Source: Harriotta raleighana (taxonomy: Eukaryota). From it: 64,000 nt of DNA. Positions 1-9,000 of this stretch are shown here, in pieces (position 1 is the first letter of the stretch; each line of letters begins with the position of its first letter). The position numbers were made by a program. The stretch lies in the NCBI GenBank assembly GCA_050575255.1, contig JBNZDD010013678.1, positions 4,622,753 to 4,686,752 of the forward strand, in the 5' to 3' direction.

Positions 1-3000
1 ACCTTCCTTCTAAGAACAGTAACAGGTTTGACTTCTTCAACCACTGGTTTCTTAGGAACCTCCAGCACTTTAAAGAATAGCGTTGTTTAAGAAAGGATTC
101 GCATAAGACATGTAAACCACAAAAACCAAGACAACAAGAAACATAACAGGAAAGCTTGTCAACATAAAGTGTTGTTACCCTGGACATGCTCTGGAAGTAA
201 TAGGGACTTTTTGCCTTGATAAGTTAGAAANCAGGGACTTTTTGCTTTGATAAGTTAGAAATTTGACTATAAATTACTCTACACTGCTGGCAATCGGGGC
301 TTCAGTGTTTCAGTGTTTCCTATGCTTTGCAATTCCATCCCGGAATCCCTCCCATTTACCCCTCCTTTGCCTACTTCAAGACCTGACCGAAGACCTTTTC
401 CTTTGACTGTGCATTTGGTCACCCACCCAACCCCNTAGGGACTTTTTGCCTTGATAAGTTAGAAATGTGACTATAAATTACTCTACACTGCTGGCAATCA
501 GGGCTTCAGTGTTTCTGCCCCTATGCTTTGCAATTCCATCCCGGAATCCCTCCCATTCACCCCTCCTTTGCCTACTTCAAGACCCGACCGAAGACCTTTT
601 CCTTTGACTGTGCATTTGGTCACCCACCCAACCCCTTGCCCTGCACTGTTGATTCCATCCACCAGCTGGAATACAAACACTTGACTGTCTAGCACCTTGG
701 AGCATCCATCTGAATTAAAAGGCACATTATAAATTTATTTTGATGTTTGTTTAATACGACATTAAATAATGCAGTGAGCCAACTGCAATCATTGGCAAAG
801 TCACCAATTGAGAATTATGAATTGGGTCTAACCTGACACCATATCAATATGTAAATATCCTGGTTGATATAGATTAATGTAACCAACTCCATCGGTGATA
901 AAGTCACCAATTTAAAGGGGTTTAGAAAATCACCACTCAATAAATTGACTACAAAATGTGTTGCACCAACATGACAGTAGTTAACTGAAATATATTAAAC
1001 TGTATGTTACAGTTACTGCATATGACAGCATGAAAGATATTCACAGACGTAAAACACAAACACATGGATGTCACAACATTGTAACAGAATAGAACTTGGA
1101 TGACTAAATATGGTGATGATTTATTCCACCACAACAAGAAGAATCAAAAGCAATATCTGGACAGTGATTGAGAAATGCCTGAAAAATGTAGACACTATTT
1201 TCATTCAAATGATGGAAACAGACAGCCAAACTGAGTATGAATGAAGATGTCATAAAATCTCTCTCTAGTGCTGTACCTTCAGTTGGAGGAATCTCCTTCC
1301 TCCTTGGAACAGTAACAGGTTTCATTTCTTCAACTACTGTCCTCTTAGGAGCCTCTGGCACTTTTAAGAATATTAGCATTTTAGGAAATGATTTATTCAA
1401 GAAAATACATATAACATTTAACACGTTAACGTCACAGACGAGACCAACTGACGCCAGACGAAGAACCAGAAGCTAGGGCTGGACAGAGTTTGTGAGACGA
1501 CAATGAAACATAGACACAGTTTTCAATCAATGATGCGTATGTGCAGCCACACTGTAAATATTTTAAAGTGTCCCATTGGTTTTGTACCTTCTATTGGAGG
1601 AGACACCTTCCTTCTAAGAACAGTAACAGGTTTGCCTTCTTCAGCCACCGGCTTCTTAGGAACCTCCAGCACTTTAAAGAATAGCGTTGTTTAAGAAATG
1701 ATTTGCTTAAGAATACACATAACATTGAAGGCACGTAAACCAAGATAACAAAGAAACATCACAGGAAAACGTACTCAAAATGACATATTGATGGTACGTG
1801 AAATGCATGAGTGAATCAAAAGTAAAATGACTTGTCAACATAGTGTTGTTATCCTGGACAGGATTGCCTCCTTCTGGAAATAACAGGGACTTTTTGCCTT
1901 CATAAGTTAGAAATGTGACTACAAATTACTCTACTTTACACAAATGCCAGTCAGGCCATCAGCGTTTCTGCCTCTACACTTGGAATTCCATCCCCAAATC
2001 CCTCCAGCTCGGCCCCTCATTTGCCTCCTTCAAGCCCTTTCTCTTTCACTATGCTTTTGGCCACCCACCCAAGGCCCTTGCCCACCACCCCCTATTGATT
2101 ATATGCCCCAGCTGGGACGCAAACCCTTGACTGTCTAGTGCTTTGGGACATCCACCTGAATTGAAAAGCACATTATAAATGTAATTTGCTGTTTGTTTAA
2201 TATTACATTAAACGAATAATGCAGTGAGCCAACTACAATCATTGGCAAAGTCACCAACTGAGATTTGTGCATGTTAAGGATCCGGGCCTGCTCTAACCTG
2301 ATACAATATCAATCTGTAAATTTCCGAGTCGATGGAGAGTAACGTAAACAACTCCATTGGTGATAAATTCACCAATTTATAAGTGTTCAGAAAATCACTC
2401 TCAATAAATTGACCAAGAAATATGTTGCACCAATGTGACAGTAATTAACTGAAATATACTAAACATTGCCCCTGATTATTACAGTTACTACATATGCCAT
2501 CGCCTTGGACGTCCTCCTGACGAGAAAGGCGCTCTATGAATGTAGTTTTATTGTTATTGTCGTTGTGAAAGATATTCAAAGACGTAAAACACAAACAAAG
2601 AATATTACAACACTGTAACAGAATAGAACATGGGTGACTGAATATGGTGATGATTAATTCCATAACAGGAACCAGAATCAATATGGGGACAGTGATTGAA
2701 AAATGGCTGAAAAATGTAGACACAAATTTCAGTCAAAAGATGAAAACAGACAGCCAAACTGAATATGAATGAAGATGTCATAAAATCTCTCTCTAGTGTT
2801 ATACCTTCAGTTGGAGGAATTTCCTTCCTTCTTGGAACAGGTTTCACTTCTTCAAGTACTGTCTTCTTAGGAACCTCTGGCACTTTTAAGAATATTAGCA
2901 TTTTAGGAAATGATTCATTCAAGAAAATACAAAGAACATTTAACACACTAACTTCACAGACAAGACCAACCAGACGAAGAACCAGAAACTGAGTCAAGAC

Positions 3001-6000: not shown

Positions 6001-9000
6001 CGTGAAATGCATGAGTGAATCAAATGTAACATCACTTGTGTTGTTACCTGGACAGGTTCTGAAATTAACAGGGATGTTTTGCCTTGTTAAGTTAGAAATG
6101 TGACTACAAATAACTACTTTATACCACTGGCGGTCGGGCCTTCAGTGTTTCTGCCCCTACCCTTTGGAATTCTATCCTGGAATCGCTCTGCCTCGCCCCC
6201 TACCTTGCCTCCTTCAAGACCCGACTCAAGACCTTTCTCTTTGACTGTGCCTTTGGCCACCCACCCAATCCCCTTGCCCTGCACTCCTGTTGATTCCACC
6301 CCCCACCTGGGATGCAATCCCTTAACTGTCTAGGGCTTTGGGGTGTCCATCCGAATTGAAAGGCACTTTATAAATGTAATTTGCTGTTTGTTTAATATTA
6401 CATTAAAATAATAATGCAGTGAGCTAACTACAATCAAATTAGATTTGTGAATGTTACAGGTCCAATCCTGCTCCCAGCTGACACCATATCAAAGTATAAA
6501 TTTCCTGATTGAAGAAAAGTAAAATCACTCTCAATAAATTGACTAAGAAATGTGTTGCACCAATGTGACAGTAGTTAACTGAAAAATACTAAACACTGCC
6601 CCTGTATGTTGCAGTTACTACATATGACAGCATGAAAGATACACACAGACACACAGACATAAAACATACAGGTATCACAACACTGTAACAGAATAGAACA
6701 TGAATGACTGAATATGGTGATGATTAATTCCACCACAACAAGATGAACCAGAATTGGAATCTGGACAATAATTGAGAAAAGGTTGAAAAATATAGACAGA
6801 ATTTTCAGTCAAATTATGGAAACAGACAGTCAAACTGAGTATGAATGAAGGTGTCATAAAATCTCTCTCTCGTGCTGTACCTTCAGCTAGAGGAATCTCC
6901 TTCCTTCTTGGAACAGTAACAGATTTCACTTCTTCAGTTACTCGCTTCTTAGGAATTTCTTGCACTTCAAAGAATATTTTTATTGTAAGAAAATGTTGAC
7001 TCAAGAAAATATATATAACTTTGAGAATTGATAAATTATCAGTCAGAACTCAAAGTAACAATGAAGACACATATAAGACATGACTGAACAAAGACAACAA
7101 ATATTTCTAAACATGAAATGAAAGCAGAAAACTGTTTTGCCAATAGTTGGAAATAAGTTATATTCAATGGTAGAATGTCAATTTGACTAGGAAATATTTT
7201 CAATGTACTATATTGTACTTTAATTTCTATTTTCTTCACAAATAATCATCACATTTTTGATTCGTCAATTTGTATTACTGATAACACTTATTTGGATTTT
7301 TATATTGAACTATATATATATATATATATAGAATCAGTGATTGGATGTTTCATGCTTACAATGGGAGTTTATTATGGGATTATTCTCTTCTCAGCCGCAA
7401 TGATTAGTCAATAGATTTACACAGTAAATGTACCGACTGGTGGGCAACCCTATCTTATAAAATCATTGCTTTTATTGATGTGCAGAAAATTACATCCCAT
7501 TAATTGACAGAGAGGATGCACTGCCCTAAATAGACAAATGGAAAAACATATTGTCCATTTTTCCTACATGTTGCACCTGTTAATTGTGACAATAATAAAA
7601 ATATTACTTGCATTTGATATAGCCTTCTAGACATCTCAAAGTGTTTCACAGAATGTACAGTAAAGTGAATTGACTGTATATTTGTGTGGGTGAATTTCTC
7701 ACAGCCAATTGCACAGTAATTGCACACAGCAGTGTCCCACAAACAGGCATGGATTGAAGTGACAAATTTCTTATTGTTTGTTTTTCAGGGATTATTATCA
7801 GTCATGTGGAGTAAGGAAACTTGGCCAAGGGTTCGCCCTGCTGGGAATCAAACCCAGGTCTCTTGAGTGACGAGTGCTCTAACCACTGACCTATGGATCT
7901 CCTCTGAAGACAATGTGAACAAGACACACAGTAAAACATAAATTTGAAACATCACAACAGAACTTTGATGAATACACACAATTGTGTTCAATTTCACCAA
8001 AACAAGAAGTACCAGAAGCTGAGTCTGGACAGTCTTTAAGAAACGATTGTGAAATGTAGTCACAGTTTTCATACCAATGATGGGAACGTGTAGCCAGACT
8101 GACTAAAGATTTTATAAAAACTCTTATTTTTGTACCTTCAATGGGAGGAGCCTCCACCCTTCTAGAAACAGCAACAGGTTTGACTTCTTCAGCCACCGGT
8201 TTCTTAGGAACCTCCAGCACTTTAAAGAATATTTGCGATTTAGCGAATAATTCTCTCAAGAAAATACACAGTACGTGGAATACAGAAGACAAGTGACTCC
8301 AAAGCACGTGAATATGACAGACAAATCCAGTCATAACAGTACATATTGAACATGACAACATTTAAAACAGAACATACCAATGAATAAATATAATAAGAAG
8401 AATAATAAGAAAGAACATAAAGAGAAGGTGGATAGAGTTGGAGAGAAGAGTGTGAAATATAGAACACAGTTTTCATTCTCATGGTGGGAACAGACAAGTA
8501 CATTGGTGAAGAACTCAGGCTTTATAAAATCTTTCTCTCTAGTTTTGTACCTTCAGTTGGAGGGGGCAACTTTCTTCTTGGAAGAGTAACTGGTTTGACT
8601 TCTTCAGCCACTGGCTTCTTAGGAACCTCTGGCACTTTAAAGAATATTATTGTTTCAATCGTTCAAGAAGAACATGTAATTTAGACAAATAAAGACCACA
8701 CAAAACACATACACAACAAATGAAACAAACAAGGGAACTACTAATTCCAAAGGTTAAGAACTCATGTGAATAATGTTAAGATATGTTTAAATGTAAATGT
8801 TTACCCTCAATCTGCATTGATCTTTGAATTATATATTTTTTTAAATCCTAAATGTTTCACTCAATATGTTGCAGGATCTAGTTTGCCCGAATTTTTAATA
8901 AAAAGTCCTGGTGATTTTCCAATGAAATAAACGTAATCACAGAGGTCATAAGCAACAGTCTTTGCTCTTTGCTCATCCACCACCACTCCCCTATGTTCTG

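What the first reader, a model, noticed from the sequence alone, without database searches (positions are those of the whole stretch)
1..6964. Recent tandem amplification of a two-exon PEVK cassette
Seen: about five units of exon A plus exon B with highly similar introns. All complete exons stay open, phase 1-1, with intact GT/AG, and the only exon indel is in frame (6 nt, exon 2805-2882) while introns carry many indels. Established: human TTN has its own triplicated PEVK segment. Inference: this is an independent accordion that tunes entropic spring length, possibly copy-number variable. The array runs off the left edge of the window.
Basis: partly seen in the sequence, partly recalled or inferred. 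Interest (0 to 1): 0.65.

Follow-up and report, generated by a model that had tools for sequence, protein, structure and literature searches.

The report
Amplified two-exon titin spring cassette
A non-human (cartilaginous-fish-like) titin gene has copied a pair of tiny spring-coding exons, introns included, at least five times in a row, which is a real but ordinary way for this muscle spring to grow longer.

Summary
On the minus strand, window 1-8219 carries a head-to-tail array of a two-exon PEVK cassette: five complete units plus a sixth cut by the left edge. All 10 complete exons have AG/GT and are open in phase 1-1. Nine are 84 nt; 2805-2882 is 78 nt, an in-frame loss of two codons.

The gene is titin. 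An N2A tri-helix-bundle exon, about 51 Ig exons and an N2B-type exon lie upstream. It is not human: the best named matches are shark and skate titin-like proteins at 46-47% identity.

"Recent" is overstated. Whole units are 83-94% identical, in three age tiers.

Trees of A and B exons agree, so the exons were copied together, in at least three rounds.

Exon upkeep is supported by a lack of indels (1 seen, 6 expected, P=0.016). It is not supported by open frames alone, which 44% of neutral trials keep.

Expression, copy-number variation and the mechanical effect are untested. Three Ns inside the array make the assembled copy number uncertain. This is a new member of a known kind.

The parts
1..67 (-). 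Exon B0, partial (first 67 of 84 nt; donor side lies beyond the window edge)
   Evidence: Acceptor AG with the same 25-nt upstream context as B1-B3; 91.0-94.0% identical to B1-B4 over 67 nt.
68..1276 (-). Long intron l1; holds a SINE-like dispersed-repeat remnant and two single Ns (231, 435) flanked by 30-nt and about 201-nt tandem duplicates
   Evidence: Aligned with l2-l5; TRF rows 202-261 and 233-636.
1277..1360 (-). Exon A1, 84 nt, phase 1-1
   Evidence: AG/GT and open; Pfam PPAK PF02818 at 21.5 bits, cutoff 21.
1361..1587 (-). Short intron s1 (227 nt)
   Evidence: 89.6-90.3% identical to s2-s4.
1588..1671 (-). Exon B1, 84 nt, phase 1-1
   Evidence: AG/GT and open; 95.2-96.4% identical to B2-B4.
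1672..2804 (-). Long intron l2 (1133 nt); carries a 63-nt repeat-tail insertion that l3 also has, in shorter form
2805..2882 (-). Exon A2, 78 nt: in-frame loss of 6 nt (two codons)
2883..3105 (-). Short intron s2 (223 nt)
   Evidence: 95.9% identical to s3, the closest pair.
3106..3189 (-). Exon B2, 84 nt
   Evidence: sister of B3 with support 100/97.
3190..3932 (-). Long intron l3 (743 nt) = l2-like minus the 404 nt that correspond to 2098-2501
   Evidence: HSPs 3190-3622 to 1672-2097 and 3622-4744 to 2502-3622; alignment.
3933..4016 (-). Exon A3, 84 nt
   Evidence: 0 differences from the A-type majority sequence.
4017..4244 (-). Short intron s3 (228 nt)
4245..4328 (-). Exon B3, 84 nt
4329..5489 (-). 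Long intron l4 (1161 nt); single N at 4752 beside a duplicate of about 35 nt; 61-nt unit-specific repeat-tail insertion
5490..5573 (-). Exon A4, 84 nt
   Evidence: 7 differences from the A-type majority sequence.
5574..5801 (-). Short intron s4 (228 nt)
5802..5885 (-). Exon B4, 84 nt
5886..6880 (-). Long intron l5 (995 nt)
   Evidence: 80.5-84.3% identical to l1-l4.
6881..6964 (-). Exon A5, 84 nt, the most diverged A copy
   Evidence: 78.6-86.9% identical to A1-A4; sister to the A1-A4 clade, support 92/93.
6965..8135 (-). Fifth 'short' intron, swollen to 1171 nt: short-intron homology at 6965-7022 and 8006-8135, dispersed repeat at 7545-7893
   Evidence: 11 other matches to the repeat in the window, on both strands.
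8136..8219 (-).
   Evidence: AG/GT and open; 84.5-86.9% identical to B1-B4; sister to the B1-B4 clade, support 90/88.
8551..8634 (-). Older related PEVK exon, next branch outside the B clade; not counted as part of the array
   Evidence: support 90/88; flanks about 62-72% similar.

Best explanation
This is a real, lineage-specific tandem array inside the PEVK spring region of a titin (connectin) gene of a non-human vertebrate that looks like a cartilaginous fish.

The unit, in gene order, is B exon, short intron (about 228 nt), A exon, long intron (0.74-1.2 kb, holding an old transposon remnant). Each exon codes one 28-residue proline/glutamate/valine/lysine-rich repeat.

An older single-exon duplication made the A and B types. 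The two-exon unit was then copied as a block at least three times. Unequal crossing-over between the homologous introns is the most likely means (inferred). The order was unit 5 first, then units 1, 4 and the 2/3 ancestor, and last the split of units 2 and 3.

Every PEVK exon in the window starts with two bases of a codon and ends with the first base of the next. The codon formed across any exon-exon junction is therefore always valine (G|TG, once G|TC). Any number of units can be added, lost or skipped without breaking the frame, and each unit adds 56 residues of disordered spring (inferred).

Selection has kept exon length, frame and splice signals but only weakly constrains the amino acids.

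Shown: the anatomy, the cassette-wise copying, the age tiers, the lack of exon indels and the titin context. Inferred: the crossing-over mechanism, inclusion in mRNA and the effect on spring length.
For: Anatomy and splice signals: 10 of 10 complete array exons have AG/GT, are open and are phase 1-1.

Copied as a block:
- The A and B clades share one topology, and (B2,B3) has support 100/97.
- 28 of 38 two-against-two sites group units 2+3 against 1+4.
- 12 of 18 such long-intron sites are polarised by unit 5 as derived in units 2+3.
- l2 and l3 share a repeat-tail insertion (the aligner puts l3's copy at the 404-nt deletion junction), and l3 has a private 404-nt deletion.

Age tiers: whole-unit JC distances are 0.058 for U2-U3, 0.118-0.144 among U1-U4 and 0.172-0.190 to U5.

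Upkeep of the exons:
- 1 indel (in frame) in 168 exon columns, against 46 in about 1275 intron nt. The expectation is 6.1, Poisson P(<=1) = 0.016, and only 9 of the 46 intron gaps are multiples of 3.
- 20 of 20 splice dinucleotides are intact.
- The 25 nt before the acceptor show one difference in 9 copies: A1-A4 are identical, B0-B3 are identical and B4 has one change.
- Pooled pN is 0.050 against pS 0.081, omega about 0.6.

PEVK character: P+E+V+K is 0.59-0.76 per exon, above the 0.54 cut-off of PEVK_Finder (passage of PMC6469411). The Pfam PPAK motif was found in 6 of 10 exon peptides, once above the cutoff.

Titin context:
- The THB domain PF18362 (a Pfam family I recall as built on titin's N2A unique sequence) is at 25208-25507, E = 1.3e-11.
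- I-set Ig domains are found in 7 of the 10 tested exon ORFs.
- The N2B-type exon matches titin-like proteins of Mustelus asterias (47%) and Rhinoraja longicauda (46%).

Not an artefact: copies differ by 6-17% and carry private indels and transposon pieces.
Against: - There is no RNA evidence that these exons are spliced in.
- Open frames are expected by chance in 44% of neutral trials.
- Omega of about 0.6 rests on 19 synonymous and 36 non-synonymous pairwise differences over 12 non-independent pairs, and is not shown to differ from 1.
- 4 of 4 young B-exon peptides give no PPAK hit at E <= 1, and only 1 of 10 peptides passes Pfam's cutoff. The model register straddles exon junctions and I searched exon by exon only.
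- 10 of 38 informative sites conflict with the main grouping. Similarity is higher near the exons than in mid-intron. The history is therefore not purely tree-like, and gene conversion or constraint may be involved.
- Three Ns with flanking duplicates lie inside the array, so the assembled copy number may be wrong.
- The indel count includes a few gap intervals caused by those N-linked duplicates.
Confidence: 0.75

Rival explanations
1. Concerted evolution. The array is old, perhaps much older than the distances suggest. Its units are kept alike by repeated gene conversion or unequal exchange, so the 'age tiers' record the last homogenisation and not the duplications.
For: - 10 of 38 informative sites support groupings other than 14|23.
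- 4 of 18 polarised sites go the other way.
- Identity is uneven along the long intron. For l1-l4 it is 94/100 and 86/100 in the first two bins next to exon A, against 66/79, 76/96 and 47/63 in the middle.
- The 25 nt before the acceptors are nearly invariant.
Against: - The A-exon and B-exon trees agree.
- Private indels and transposon pieces are not homogenised.
- Uneven identity can also come from splicing constraint near the exons and from poor alignment of the repeat-derived middle. Two bins are distorted by the N-linked duplicates.
Confidence: 0.25
2. The copies are silent by-products. Some or all array exons are no longer (or never were) included in mRNA and are drifting.
For: - All-open frames arise in 43.8% of neutral trials.
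- Omega is about 0.6, on few changes.
- A4 and A5 carry 7 and 11 changes from the A-type majority sequence.
- Donors are non-consensus (gtaca/gtata).
Against: - Indel deficit in the exons, P = 0.016, and the single exon indel is in frame.
- 20 of 20 splice dinucleotides are intact, and the acceptor context is nearly invariant.
- In elephant shark, cloned PEVK segments differ by whole-exon steps between heart (372-424 aa) and skeletal muscle (634-774 aa). This shows that many PEVK exons are used and skipped in such fishes (PMC12241362, Results read). It does not concern these exons specifically.
Confidence: 0.15
3. Assembly artefact. The units are mis-assembled or over-expanded copies of one or two real units.
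For: - 10 of the 13 single Ns of the window sit at or beside two-copy tandem duplicates. That is the signature of unmerged contig overlaps, and three of them (231, 435, 4752) lie inside the array.
Against: - Units differ by 5.6-16.8%, with private indels of up to 404 nt and private repeat insertions.
- The N-free stretch 436-4751 alone holds two complete units and parts of two more.
- The duplicates at the Ns are 30-201 nt long, not unit-sized.
Confidence: 0.05

Closest known systems
Human TTN PEVK segmental triplication
   Same: It is a multi-exon PEVK block repeated head to tail with its introns inside the titin spring region, and the frame is kept. The human region shows recurrent copy-number variation in healthy people and patients (abstract of PMC9142044).
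   Different: - The human block has nine exons, is linked to LINE-1 insertion, and is dated to about 1 and 3 Myr (passages of PMC12241362, and PMC6469411).
- Here the block has two exons (1.1-1.6 kb) and at least 5.5 copies, with 6-17% divergence in three tiers.
- The repeat remnant lies inside each unit, and nothing shows that it caused the breakpoints.
- I made no comparison with human sequence.
Repetitive PEVK-CA sub-region and large PEVK duplications in other mammals (chimpanzee, orangutan, rat, mouse, star-nosed mole; triplication in koala)
   Same: Lineage-specific expansion and contraction of short PEVK exons by tandem duplication is the rule in this part of titin (passages of PMC6469411).
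   Different: Those cases are mammalian. This one sits in a genome whose nearest named titin matches are a shark and a skate.
6-Ig super-repeat duplications of the middle-Ig segment in cartilaginous-fish connectin
   Same: Multi-exon blocks of the same gene's I-band spring were duplicated independently of mammals (PMC12241362, Results read). The window itself shows seven such periods upstream of the array.
   Different: Those blocks are folded Ig domains in six-exon units. Here the unit is a disordered PEVK repeat pair.
Nebulin triplicate region (eight exons repeated three times)
   Same: It is an intragenic segmental duplication of a giant sarcomere protein that varies in copy number (listing and start of abstract of PMC9109913 only; abstract of PMC9142044).
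   Different: It is a different gene and a different protein repeat.

Membership tests
Titin PEVK segment, PPAK-type exons | Lies in a titin gene, downstream of the N2A element | tested here: met
   THB domain PF18362 at 25208-25507 (E = 1.3e-11) flanked by I-set Ig exons; N2B-type exon at 63014-64000 with titin-like best hits; same strand and order. The distal Ig segment lies outside the window.
Titin PEVK segment, PPAK-type exons | Short exons rich in P, E, V and K (PEVK_Finder cut-off 0.54, canonical splice sites; passage of PMC6469411) | tested here: met
   P+E+V+K is 0.59-0.76 for the 10 array exons; AG/GT in 10 of 10.
Titin PEVK segment, PPAK-type exons | Match to the ~28-residue PPAK motif (Pfam PF02818) | tested here: inconclusive
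   Of 10 exon peptides, 1 is above the cutoff (A1, 21.5 bits against 21), 5 are below it (11.8-19.0 bits) and 4 (B1-B4) have no hit at E <= 1. Exons were searched one by one; the joined model was left out.
Titin PEVK segment, PPAK-type exons | Symmetric phase, so that exons can be skipped in frame | tested here: met
   Phase 1-1 in 19 of 19 complete PEVK exons. All 19 end in G; 18 start with TG and one with TC, so every junction codon is Val.
Titin PEVK segment, PPAK-type exons | Exons present in muscle mRNA | not testable with these tools
Intragenic tandem cassette amplification (as in the human TTN and NEB duplicated blocks) | Head-to-tail copies whose homology includes the introns | tested here: met
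Intragenic tandem cassette amplification (as in the human TTN and NEB duplicated blocks) | The exons of one block were copied together | tested here: met
   The A and B clades share a topology; 28 of 38 informative sites across all four segments agree.
Intragenic tandem cassette amplification (as in the human TTN and NEB duplicated blocks) | A mobile element at the block boundaries that drove the duplication (LINE-1 in human) | tested here: inconclusive
   Each long intron holds a remnant whose tail recurs at four other places in the window. No element could be placed at a breakpoint, no repeat library was on hand, and Rfam and tRNA scans found nothing.
Intragenic tandem cassette amplification (as in the human TTN and NEB duplicated blocks) | Copy number varies among individuals | not testable with these tools
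   One assembly only.
Assembly-made duplication | Copies nearly identical, with unit boundaries at gaps | tested here: not met
   Units are 83.2-94.4% identical. The Ns lie inside long introns beside duplicates of 30-201 nt.

The most novel reading that the evidence does not exclude
The array is a block of individually switchable spring modules. Each copied cassette carried along its own UCUU-rich stretch just upstream of each acceptor (UCUU is the core recognition element reported for the titin splicing repressor RBM20). The amplification would then add regulated, skippable spring length, not fixed length. On this reading the array grew in at least three rounds, is still polymorphic in copy number, and shows a cartilaginous-fish lineage lengthening its PEVK spring in parallel to mammals, by a different and much smaller unit.
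Probability: 0.2. Interest if true: 0.5.

Novelty: new member of a known kind. Interest (0 to 1): 0.3.

Why it matters
Titin's PEVK segment sets much of the passive stiffness of muscle, and how its length evolves has been studied mostly in mammals. This array shows the same accordion-like growth by tandem copying of exon blocks in a genome close to cartilaginous fishes. The unit is very small (two exons, 56 residues) and the rounds have clearly separate ages.

If all 10 complete exons and the cut one are included, the part in the window adds about 300 residues. That would be a large share of the 634-774-residue skeletal PEVK cloned from elephant shark (PMC12241362), if that species or a relative is the source (inferred).

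Unit-specific marks, such as the 78-nt form of A2, would let junction reads be assigned to single units.

For annotation there is a practical point. Such exons are easily missed or miscounted, and the local assembly has gap-linked duplicates.

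Tried and rejected
- The unspliced 45-residue ORF around B3, against longer proteins: nothing at E <= 1.
- The unspliced 154-residue ORF around A3, against proteins of similar length: nothing at E <= 0.001.
- I therefore could not tell whether relatives carry the same cassette, or whether more units exist beyond the window.
- These searches reach only proteins of up to 2000 residues, so full-length titins of any species were never compared.
- Rfam at gathering thresholds over the whole window: 0 matches. tRNA scan of 1-20000: 0. 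No RNA-gene origin of the intron repeat was shown.

Computations that fell short:
- A gapless script for duplicates at the Ns found only 5 of 13. TRF and the alignment show five more.
- A regular-expression count of Ig domains gave 42 hits, two of them doubtful, which is an undercount. I use my hand count of the ORF list instead and mark it as such.
- The multiple alignment overstates long-intron divergence around the l3 deletion and the N-linked duplicates. I therefore give pairwise whole-unit values.

Left out:
dN/dS counts were made exon by exon and summed.
- I do not take the contig for human, and made no comparison with human sequence.
- The Ns were not filled.
- I made no structure or complex prediction, because I judged it uninformative for a repeat I expect to be disordered.

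Not available:
No orthologous locus could be fetched.
- Figures and supplements of PMC12241362 (its PEVK exon map, Fig. 2d) could not be seen and may already show these exons.

Not found in print: a PEVK cassette amplification in cartilaginous fishes. The searches were 'PEVK' + 'titin' + 'exon duplication' (3 papers) and 'PEVK' + 'shark' (8 papers). I also read the Results and the PEVK, duplication and tandem passages of PMC12241362.

Full report
WHAT IS IN THE SEQUENCE

The gene runs on the minus strand. A scan for AG|exon|GT stretches that are open in phase 1 and rich in P, E, V and K found 19 complete exons between 1277 and 16978, and none above 16978. A twentieth, cut by the window edge, lies at 1-67. 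All 19 complete exons have an AG acceptor and a GT donor. All 19 end in G. Eighteen start with TG and one with TC, and the cut exon also starts with TG.

The first eleven exons alternate between two types:
- A type: A1 1277-1360, A2 2805-2882, A3 3933-4016, A4 5490-5573, A5 6881-6964.
- B type: B0 1-67 (partial), B1 1588-1671, B2 3106-3189, B3 4245-4328, B4 5802-5885, B5 8136-8219.

All are 84 nt except A2, which is 78 nt and lacks two codons.

THE REPEAT INCLUDES THE INTRONS

In gene order a unit is B exon, short intron, A exon, long intron.

- The four young short introns are 227, 223, 228 and 228 nt long and 89.6-95.9% identical.
- The five long introns are 1209, 1133, 743, 1161 and 995 nt and align over their whole length with many private gaps.
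- Pairwise whole-unit identities, mismatches only, fall into three tiers:
  - U2-U3: 94.4% (JC 0.058).
  - The other pairs among U1-U4: 86.9-89.1% (JC 0.118-0.144).
  - U5 against the rest: 83.2-84.6% (JC 0.172-0.190).
- BLAST of units 3+4 against the window gives unit-length matches with E = 0.0 up to about 7022. Beyond that come weaker matches (62-77%) of exon plus 100-200 nt of flank, at every PEVK exon up to 16988.
The intron between B5 and A5 (6965-8135) keeps short-intron homology at its two ends (6965-7022; 8006-8135). Its middle holds a dispersed repeat (7545-7893) with 11 other matches in the window, on both strands.

The array in the window is therefore 1-8219: five complete units and a sixth cut at the edge.

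HISTORY

A maximum-likelihood tree was built from exon plus 58 nt upstream and 120 nt downstream, for the 19 complete exons. It puts the 11 exons at 1277-8634 in one clade (support 85/93). Inside it are an A clade, (A5,(A1,A4,(A2,A3))), and a B clade, (8551,(8136,(B1,B4,(B2,B3)))). The (B2,B3) node has support 100/97 and (A2,A3) has 87/84. The two exon types give the same order, so they were copied together.

Site patterns agree with this:
- Of 38 sites where units 1-4 split two against two, 28 group 2+3 against 1+4, 5 group 1+3 and 5 group 1+2.
- In the long intron, unit 5 carries the state of units 1+4 at 12 of 18 such sites, that of 2+3 at 4, and another base at 2.
- Units 2 and 3 share a repeat-tail insertion, which the aligner places at the deletion junction in l3. 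l3 then lost the 404 nt that correspond to 2098-2501.

There were therefore at least three rounds: unit 5 apart first, then units 1, 4 and the 2/3 ancestor, then the split of 2 and 3. The ten conflicting sites, and the higher identity near exons than in mid-intron, leave room for gene conversion.

Unequal crossing-over between the homologous introns is the natural mechanism, but it is inferred.

With assumed neutral rates of 0.5-2.5 x 10^-9 per site per year (my assumption, from no call), JC 0.058 means roughly 12-60 Myr for the youngest split, and JC 0.17-0.19 several times more. 'Recent' is therefore not apt. The human blocks are quoted at about 1 and 3 Myr (passage of PMC12241362).

ARE THE EXONS KEPT BY SELECTION?

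- Open frames say little. Random placement of the same numbers leaves all nine open in 43.8% of 20,000 trials.
- Amino-acid constraint is weak. Pooled over 12 non-independent pairs, pN is 0.050 and pS 0.081, giving omega of about 0.6.
- Indels are more telling. Short and long introns hold 46 distinct gap intervals, 9 of them multiples of three, in about 1275 nt. The 168 exon columns hold one, and it is in frame. The expectation is 6.1, Poisson P(<=1) = 0.016. A few of the 46 stem from the N-linked duplicates.
- All 20 splice dinucleotides of the 10 complete array exons are intact. The 25 nt before the acceptor are identical in A1-A4 and in B0-B3, with one change in B4.

Together this favours maintained, spliceable exons, with selection on length, frame and splice signals and not on residues. 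That is what I expect for a disordered spring. It is not proof of expression.

WHAT GENE, WHAT ORGANISM

- Upstream on the same strand lie an exon with the tri-helix-bundle domain PF18362 (25208-25507, E = 1.3e-11) flanked by I-set Ig exons, and further Ig exons up to 61881. From recall, this Pfam family was built on titin's N2A unique sequence.
- At 63014-64000 lies a large exon ending in an Ig domain. Its best named matches are 'titin-like' proteins of the shark Mustelus asterias (47% identity, E = 4e-100) and the skate Rhinoraja longicauda (46%). Only proteins of 577-2000 residues were searched there.
- By my hand count of the ORF list there are about 51 Ig-type exon ORFs between that exon and the N2A element.
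- A motif scan finds seven evenly spaced exons of one super-repeat position.
- This fits the six 6-Ig plus one 10-Ig super-repeats and the 51 middle-Ig domains reported for elephant shark. It does not fit whale shark (8+1), human (3+3) or zebrafish (3+1) (PMC12241362, Results read).
- I therefore take the window for a cartilaginous fish, possibly a chimaera. The species is not established. I do not take it for human, and I compared nothing with human sequence.

PEVK CHARACTER

P+E+V+K makes up 0.59-0.76 of each array exon, above the 0.54 cut-off of PEVK_Finder (passage of PMC6469411).

Pfam's PPAK motif PF02818 was tested exon by exon:

| Exon peptide | Result |
|---|---|
| A1 | 21.5 bits (cutoff 21) |
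| A3 | 19.0 bits |
| 8136-8219 | 17.5 bits |
| A4 | 15.1 bits |
| A2 | 14.2 bits |
| A5 | 11.8 bits |
| B1-B4 | no hit at E <= 1 |

Matches start at model position 6 or 7, so the motif register straddles the exon junction and single exons score low. This leaves the PPAK test inconclusive for the B type.

HOW IT LIKELY WORKS

Each unit adds two 28-residue repeats, 56 residues in all. If every exon is used, the eleven exons in the window add about 300 residues.

Phase symmetry and the constant junction codon let any subset be included (shown). That the cell uses this to set spring length is inferred from what is known of titin:
- PEVK exons are extensively and tissue-specifically skipped (PMC6279932, passages).
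- In elephant shark the PEVK is 372-424 aa in heart against 634-774 aa in skeletal muscle (PMC12241362).

A side observation fits regulated skipping:
- All 20 PEVK exons share the acceptor context tattctttaaag|TGC at 70% consensus or better.
- TCTT occurs in the last 30 intron bases of 19 of 20 exons: 27 times, against 0.35 per 30 nt over all PEVK introns.
- It piles up in the last 90 bases: 26, 24 and 16 per 30-nt bin over 19 introns, against 3-8 further upstream.
- Over all PEVK introns there are 178 on the sense strand, against 49 on the antisense strand and 121.6 +/- 10.6 in a first-order Markov control.
- UCUU is the core element reported for the titin splicing repressor RBM20 (PMC6279932, passage).
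- The copies are paralogous, and pyrimidine tracts contain such words anyway. This is a lead, not a result.

ASSEMBLY CAUTION

The window has 13 single Ns. Ten of them sit at or beside a two-copy tandem duplicate of 30-201 nt (TRF rows), as unmerged contig overlaps would. Three lie in long introns of the array (231, 435, 4752). I did not fill them.

They lengthen l1 and l4 artificially and show that the region comes from a draft assembly, so the number of units may be wrong. The units themselves cannot be artefacts of that kind: they differ by 6-17% and carry private indels, and the N-free stretch 436-4751 alone holds two complete units.

COMPARISON WITH WHAT IS KNOWN

- Tandem duplication of PEVK exon blocks is well described in mammals. 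Examples are the human triplication linked to LINE-1, large duplications in chimpanzee, orangutan, rat, mouse and star-nosed mole, and a triplication in koala. The PEVK-CA part is the most repetitive (PMC6469411, passages).
- The human block varies in copy number in healthy people (PMC9142044, abstract).
- For cartilaginous fishes, independent lengthening of the I-band has been shown for the Ig super-repeats (PMC12241362).
- In the parts of that paper I could read, and in two literature searches, I found no description of a PEVK cassette amplification in such fishes. Its figures and supplements were not visible to me and may show the exons.

VERDICT

This is a new member of a known kind, of moderate to low interest.

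Noticed in passing
window 231, 435, 4752, 13477, 17168, 18701, 21085, 48938, 50135, 50462 (also 34351, 39231, 50841): The window has 13 single Ns. Ten sit at or beside a two-copy tandem duplicate of 30-201 nt at 91-99% identity, as unmerged contig overlaps at gaps would. The other three show no such duplicate; one follows a poly-C run. None was filled.
   Followed up: partly
window 1-16978, minus strand, last 30-90 nt of each PEVK intron: All 20 PEVK exons share the acceptor context tattctttaaag|TGC. TCTT (UCUU, the reported RBM20 core element) is in the last 30 nt of 19 of 20 and piles up in the last 90 nt. Introns hold 178 on the sense strand against 49 antisense and 121.6 +/- 10.6 expected (PMC6279932 passages). 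Shared ancestry of the copies is a confounder.
   Followed up: partly
window 1-16978, minus strand, exon ends: Every PEVK exon ends in G. Nineteen of 20 begin with TG and one with TC, so the split codon at any exon-exon junction is always valine, whichever exons are joined.
   Followed up: yes
window 7545-7893; also 14493-14834, 22544-22718, 23256-23474, 26482-26633, 53495-53719 and others: A dispersed repeat has 11 other partial matches in the window, on both strands. One insertion swelled the fifth unit's short intron from about 228 to 1171 nt. The element is not named, because no repeat library was on hand.
   Followed up: partly
window 14446-14532, 48219-48323, 53932-54015, 58352-58439 and each long intron of the array: Pieces of the SINE-like remnant in the long introns recur elsewhere in the window at 67-90% identity: tail-like stretches of about 40-90 nt at three sites and a 106-nt internal piece at 48219-48323. 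Extra tail fragments are private to l2/l3 (63 nt) and l4 (61 nt).
   Followed up: partly
window 26058-62000, minus strand: There are about 51 Ig-type exon ORFs between the N2B-type exon and the N2A element (hand count), and seven evenly spaced exons of one super-repeat position at 56527, 52021, 47275, 43784, 40461, 36704 and 33339. This fits the six 6-Ig plus one 10-Ig super-repeats reported for elephant shark (PMC12241362).
   Followed up: partly
window 25208-25507, minus strand: This exon carries the tri-helix-bundle domain PF18362 (E = 1.3e-11), a family I recall as built on titin's N2A unique sequence. It is flanked by four I-set Ig exons at 26058-26378, 24690-25019, 24342-24683 and 23973-24341.
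   Followed up: yes
window 17000-23900, minus strand: Likely first PEVK exons with lower P/E/V/K content lie here, for example E-rich ORFs at 20493-20735 and 19705-20010. They were not picked up by my 0.55 threshold and have no Pfam hit. Their exon borders were not worked out.
   Followed up: no
window 18399-18910; 39169-39230; 50110-50134; 34000-36000: Intronic low-complexity DNA: a GGAA/GA microsatellite block, two poly-C runs of 62 and 25 nt, and a GC-rich stretch (GC 0.52).
   Followed up: no
window 60173-60793 and 48798-49706, minus strand: One ORF holds two I-set Ig domains without a break. Another 302-residue ORF appears, by eye, to run through two Ig exons and the intron between them in frame.
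   Followed up: no
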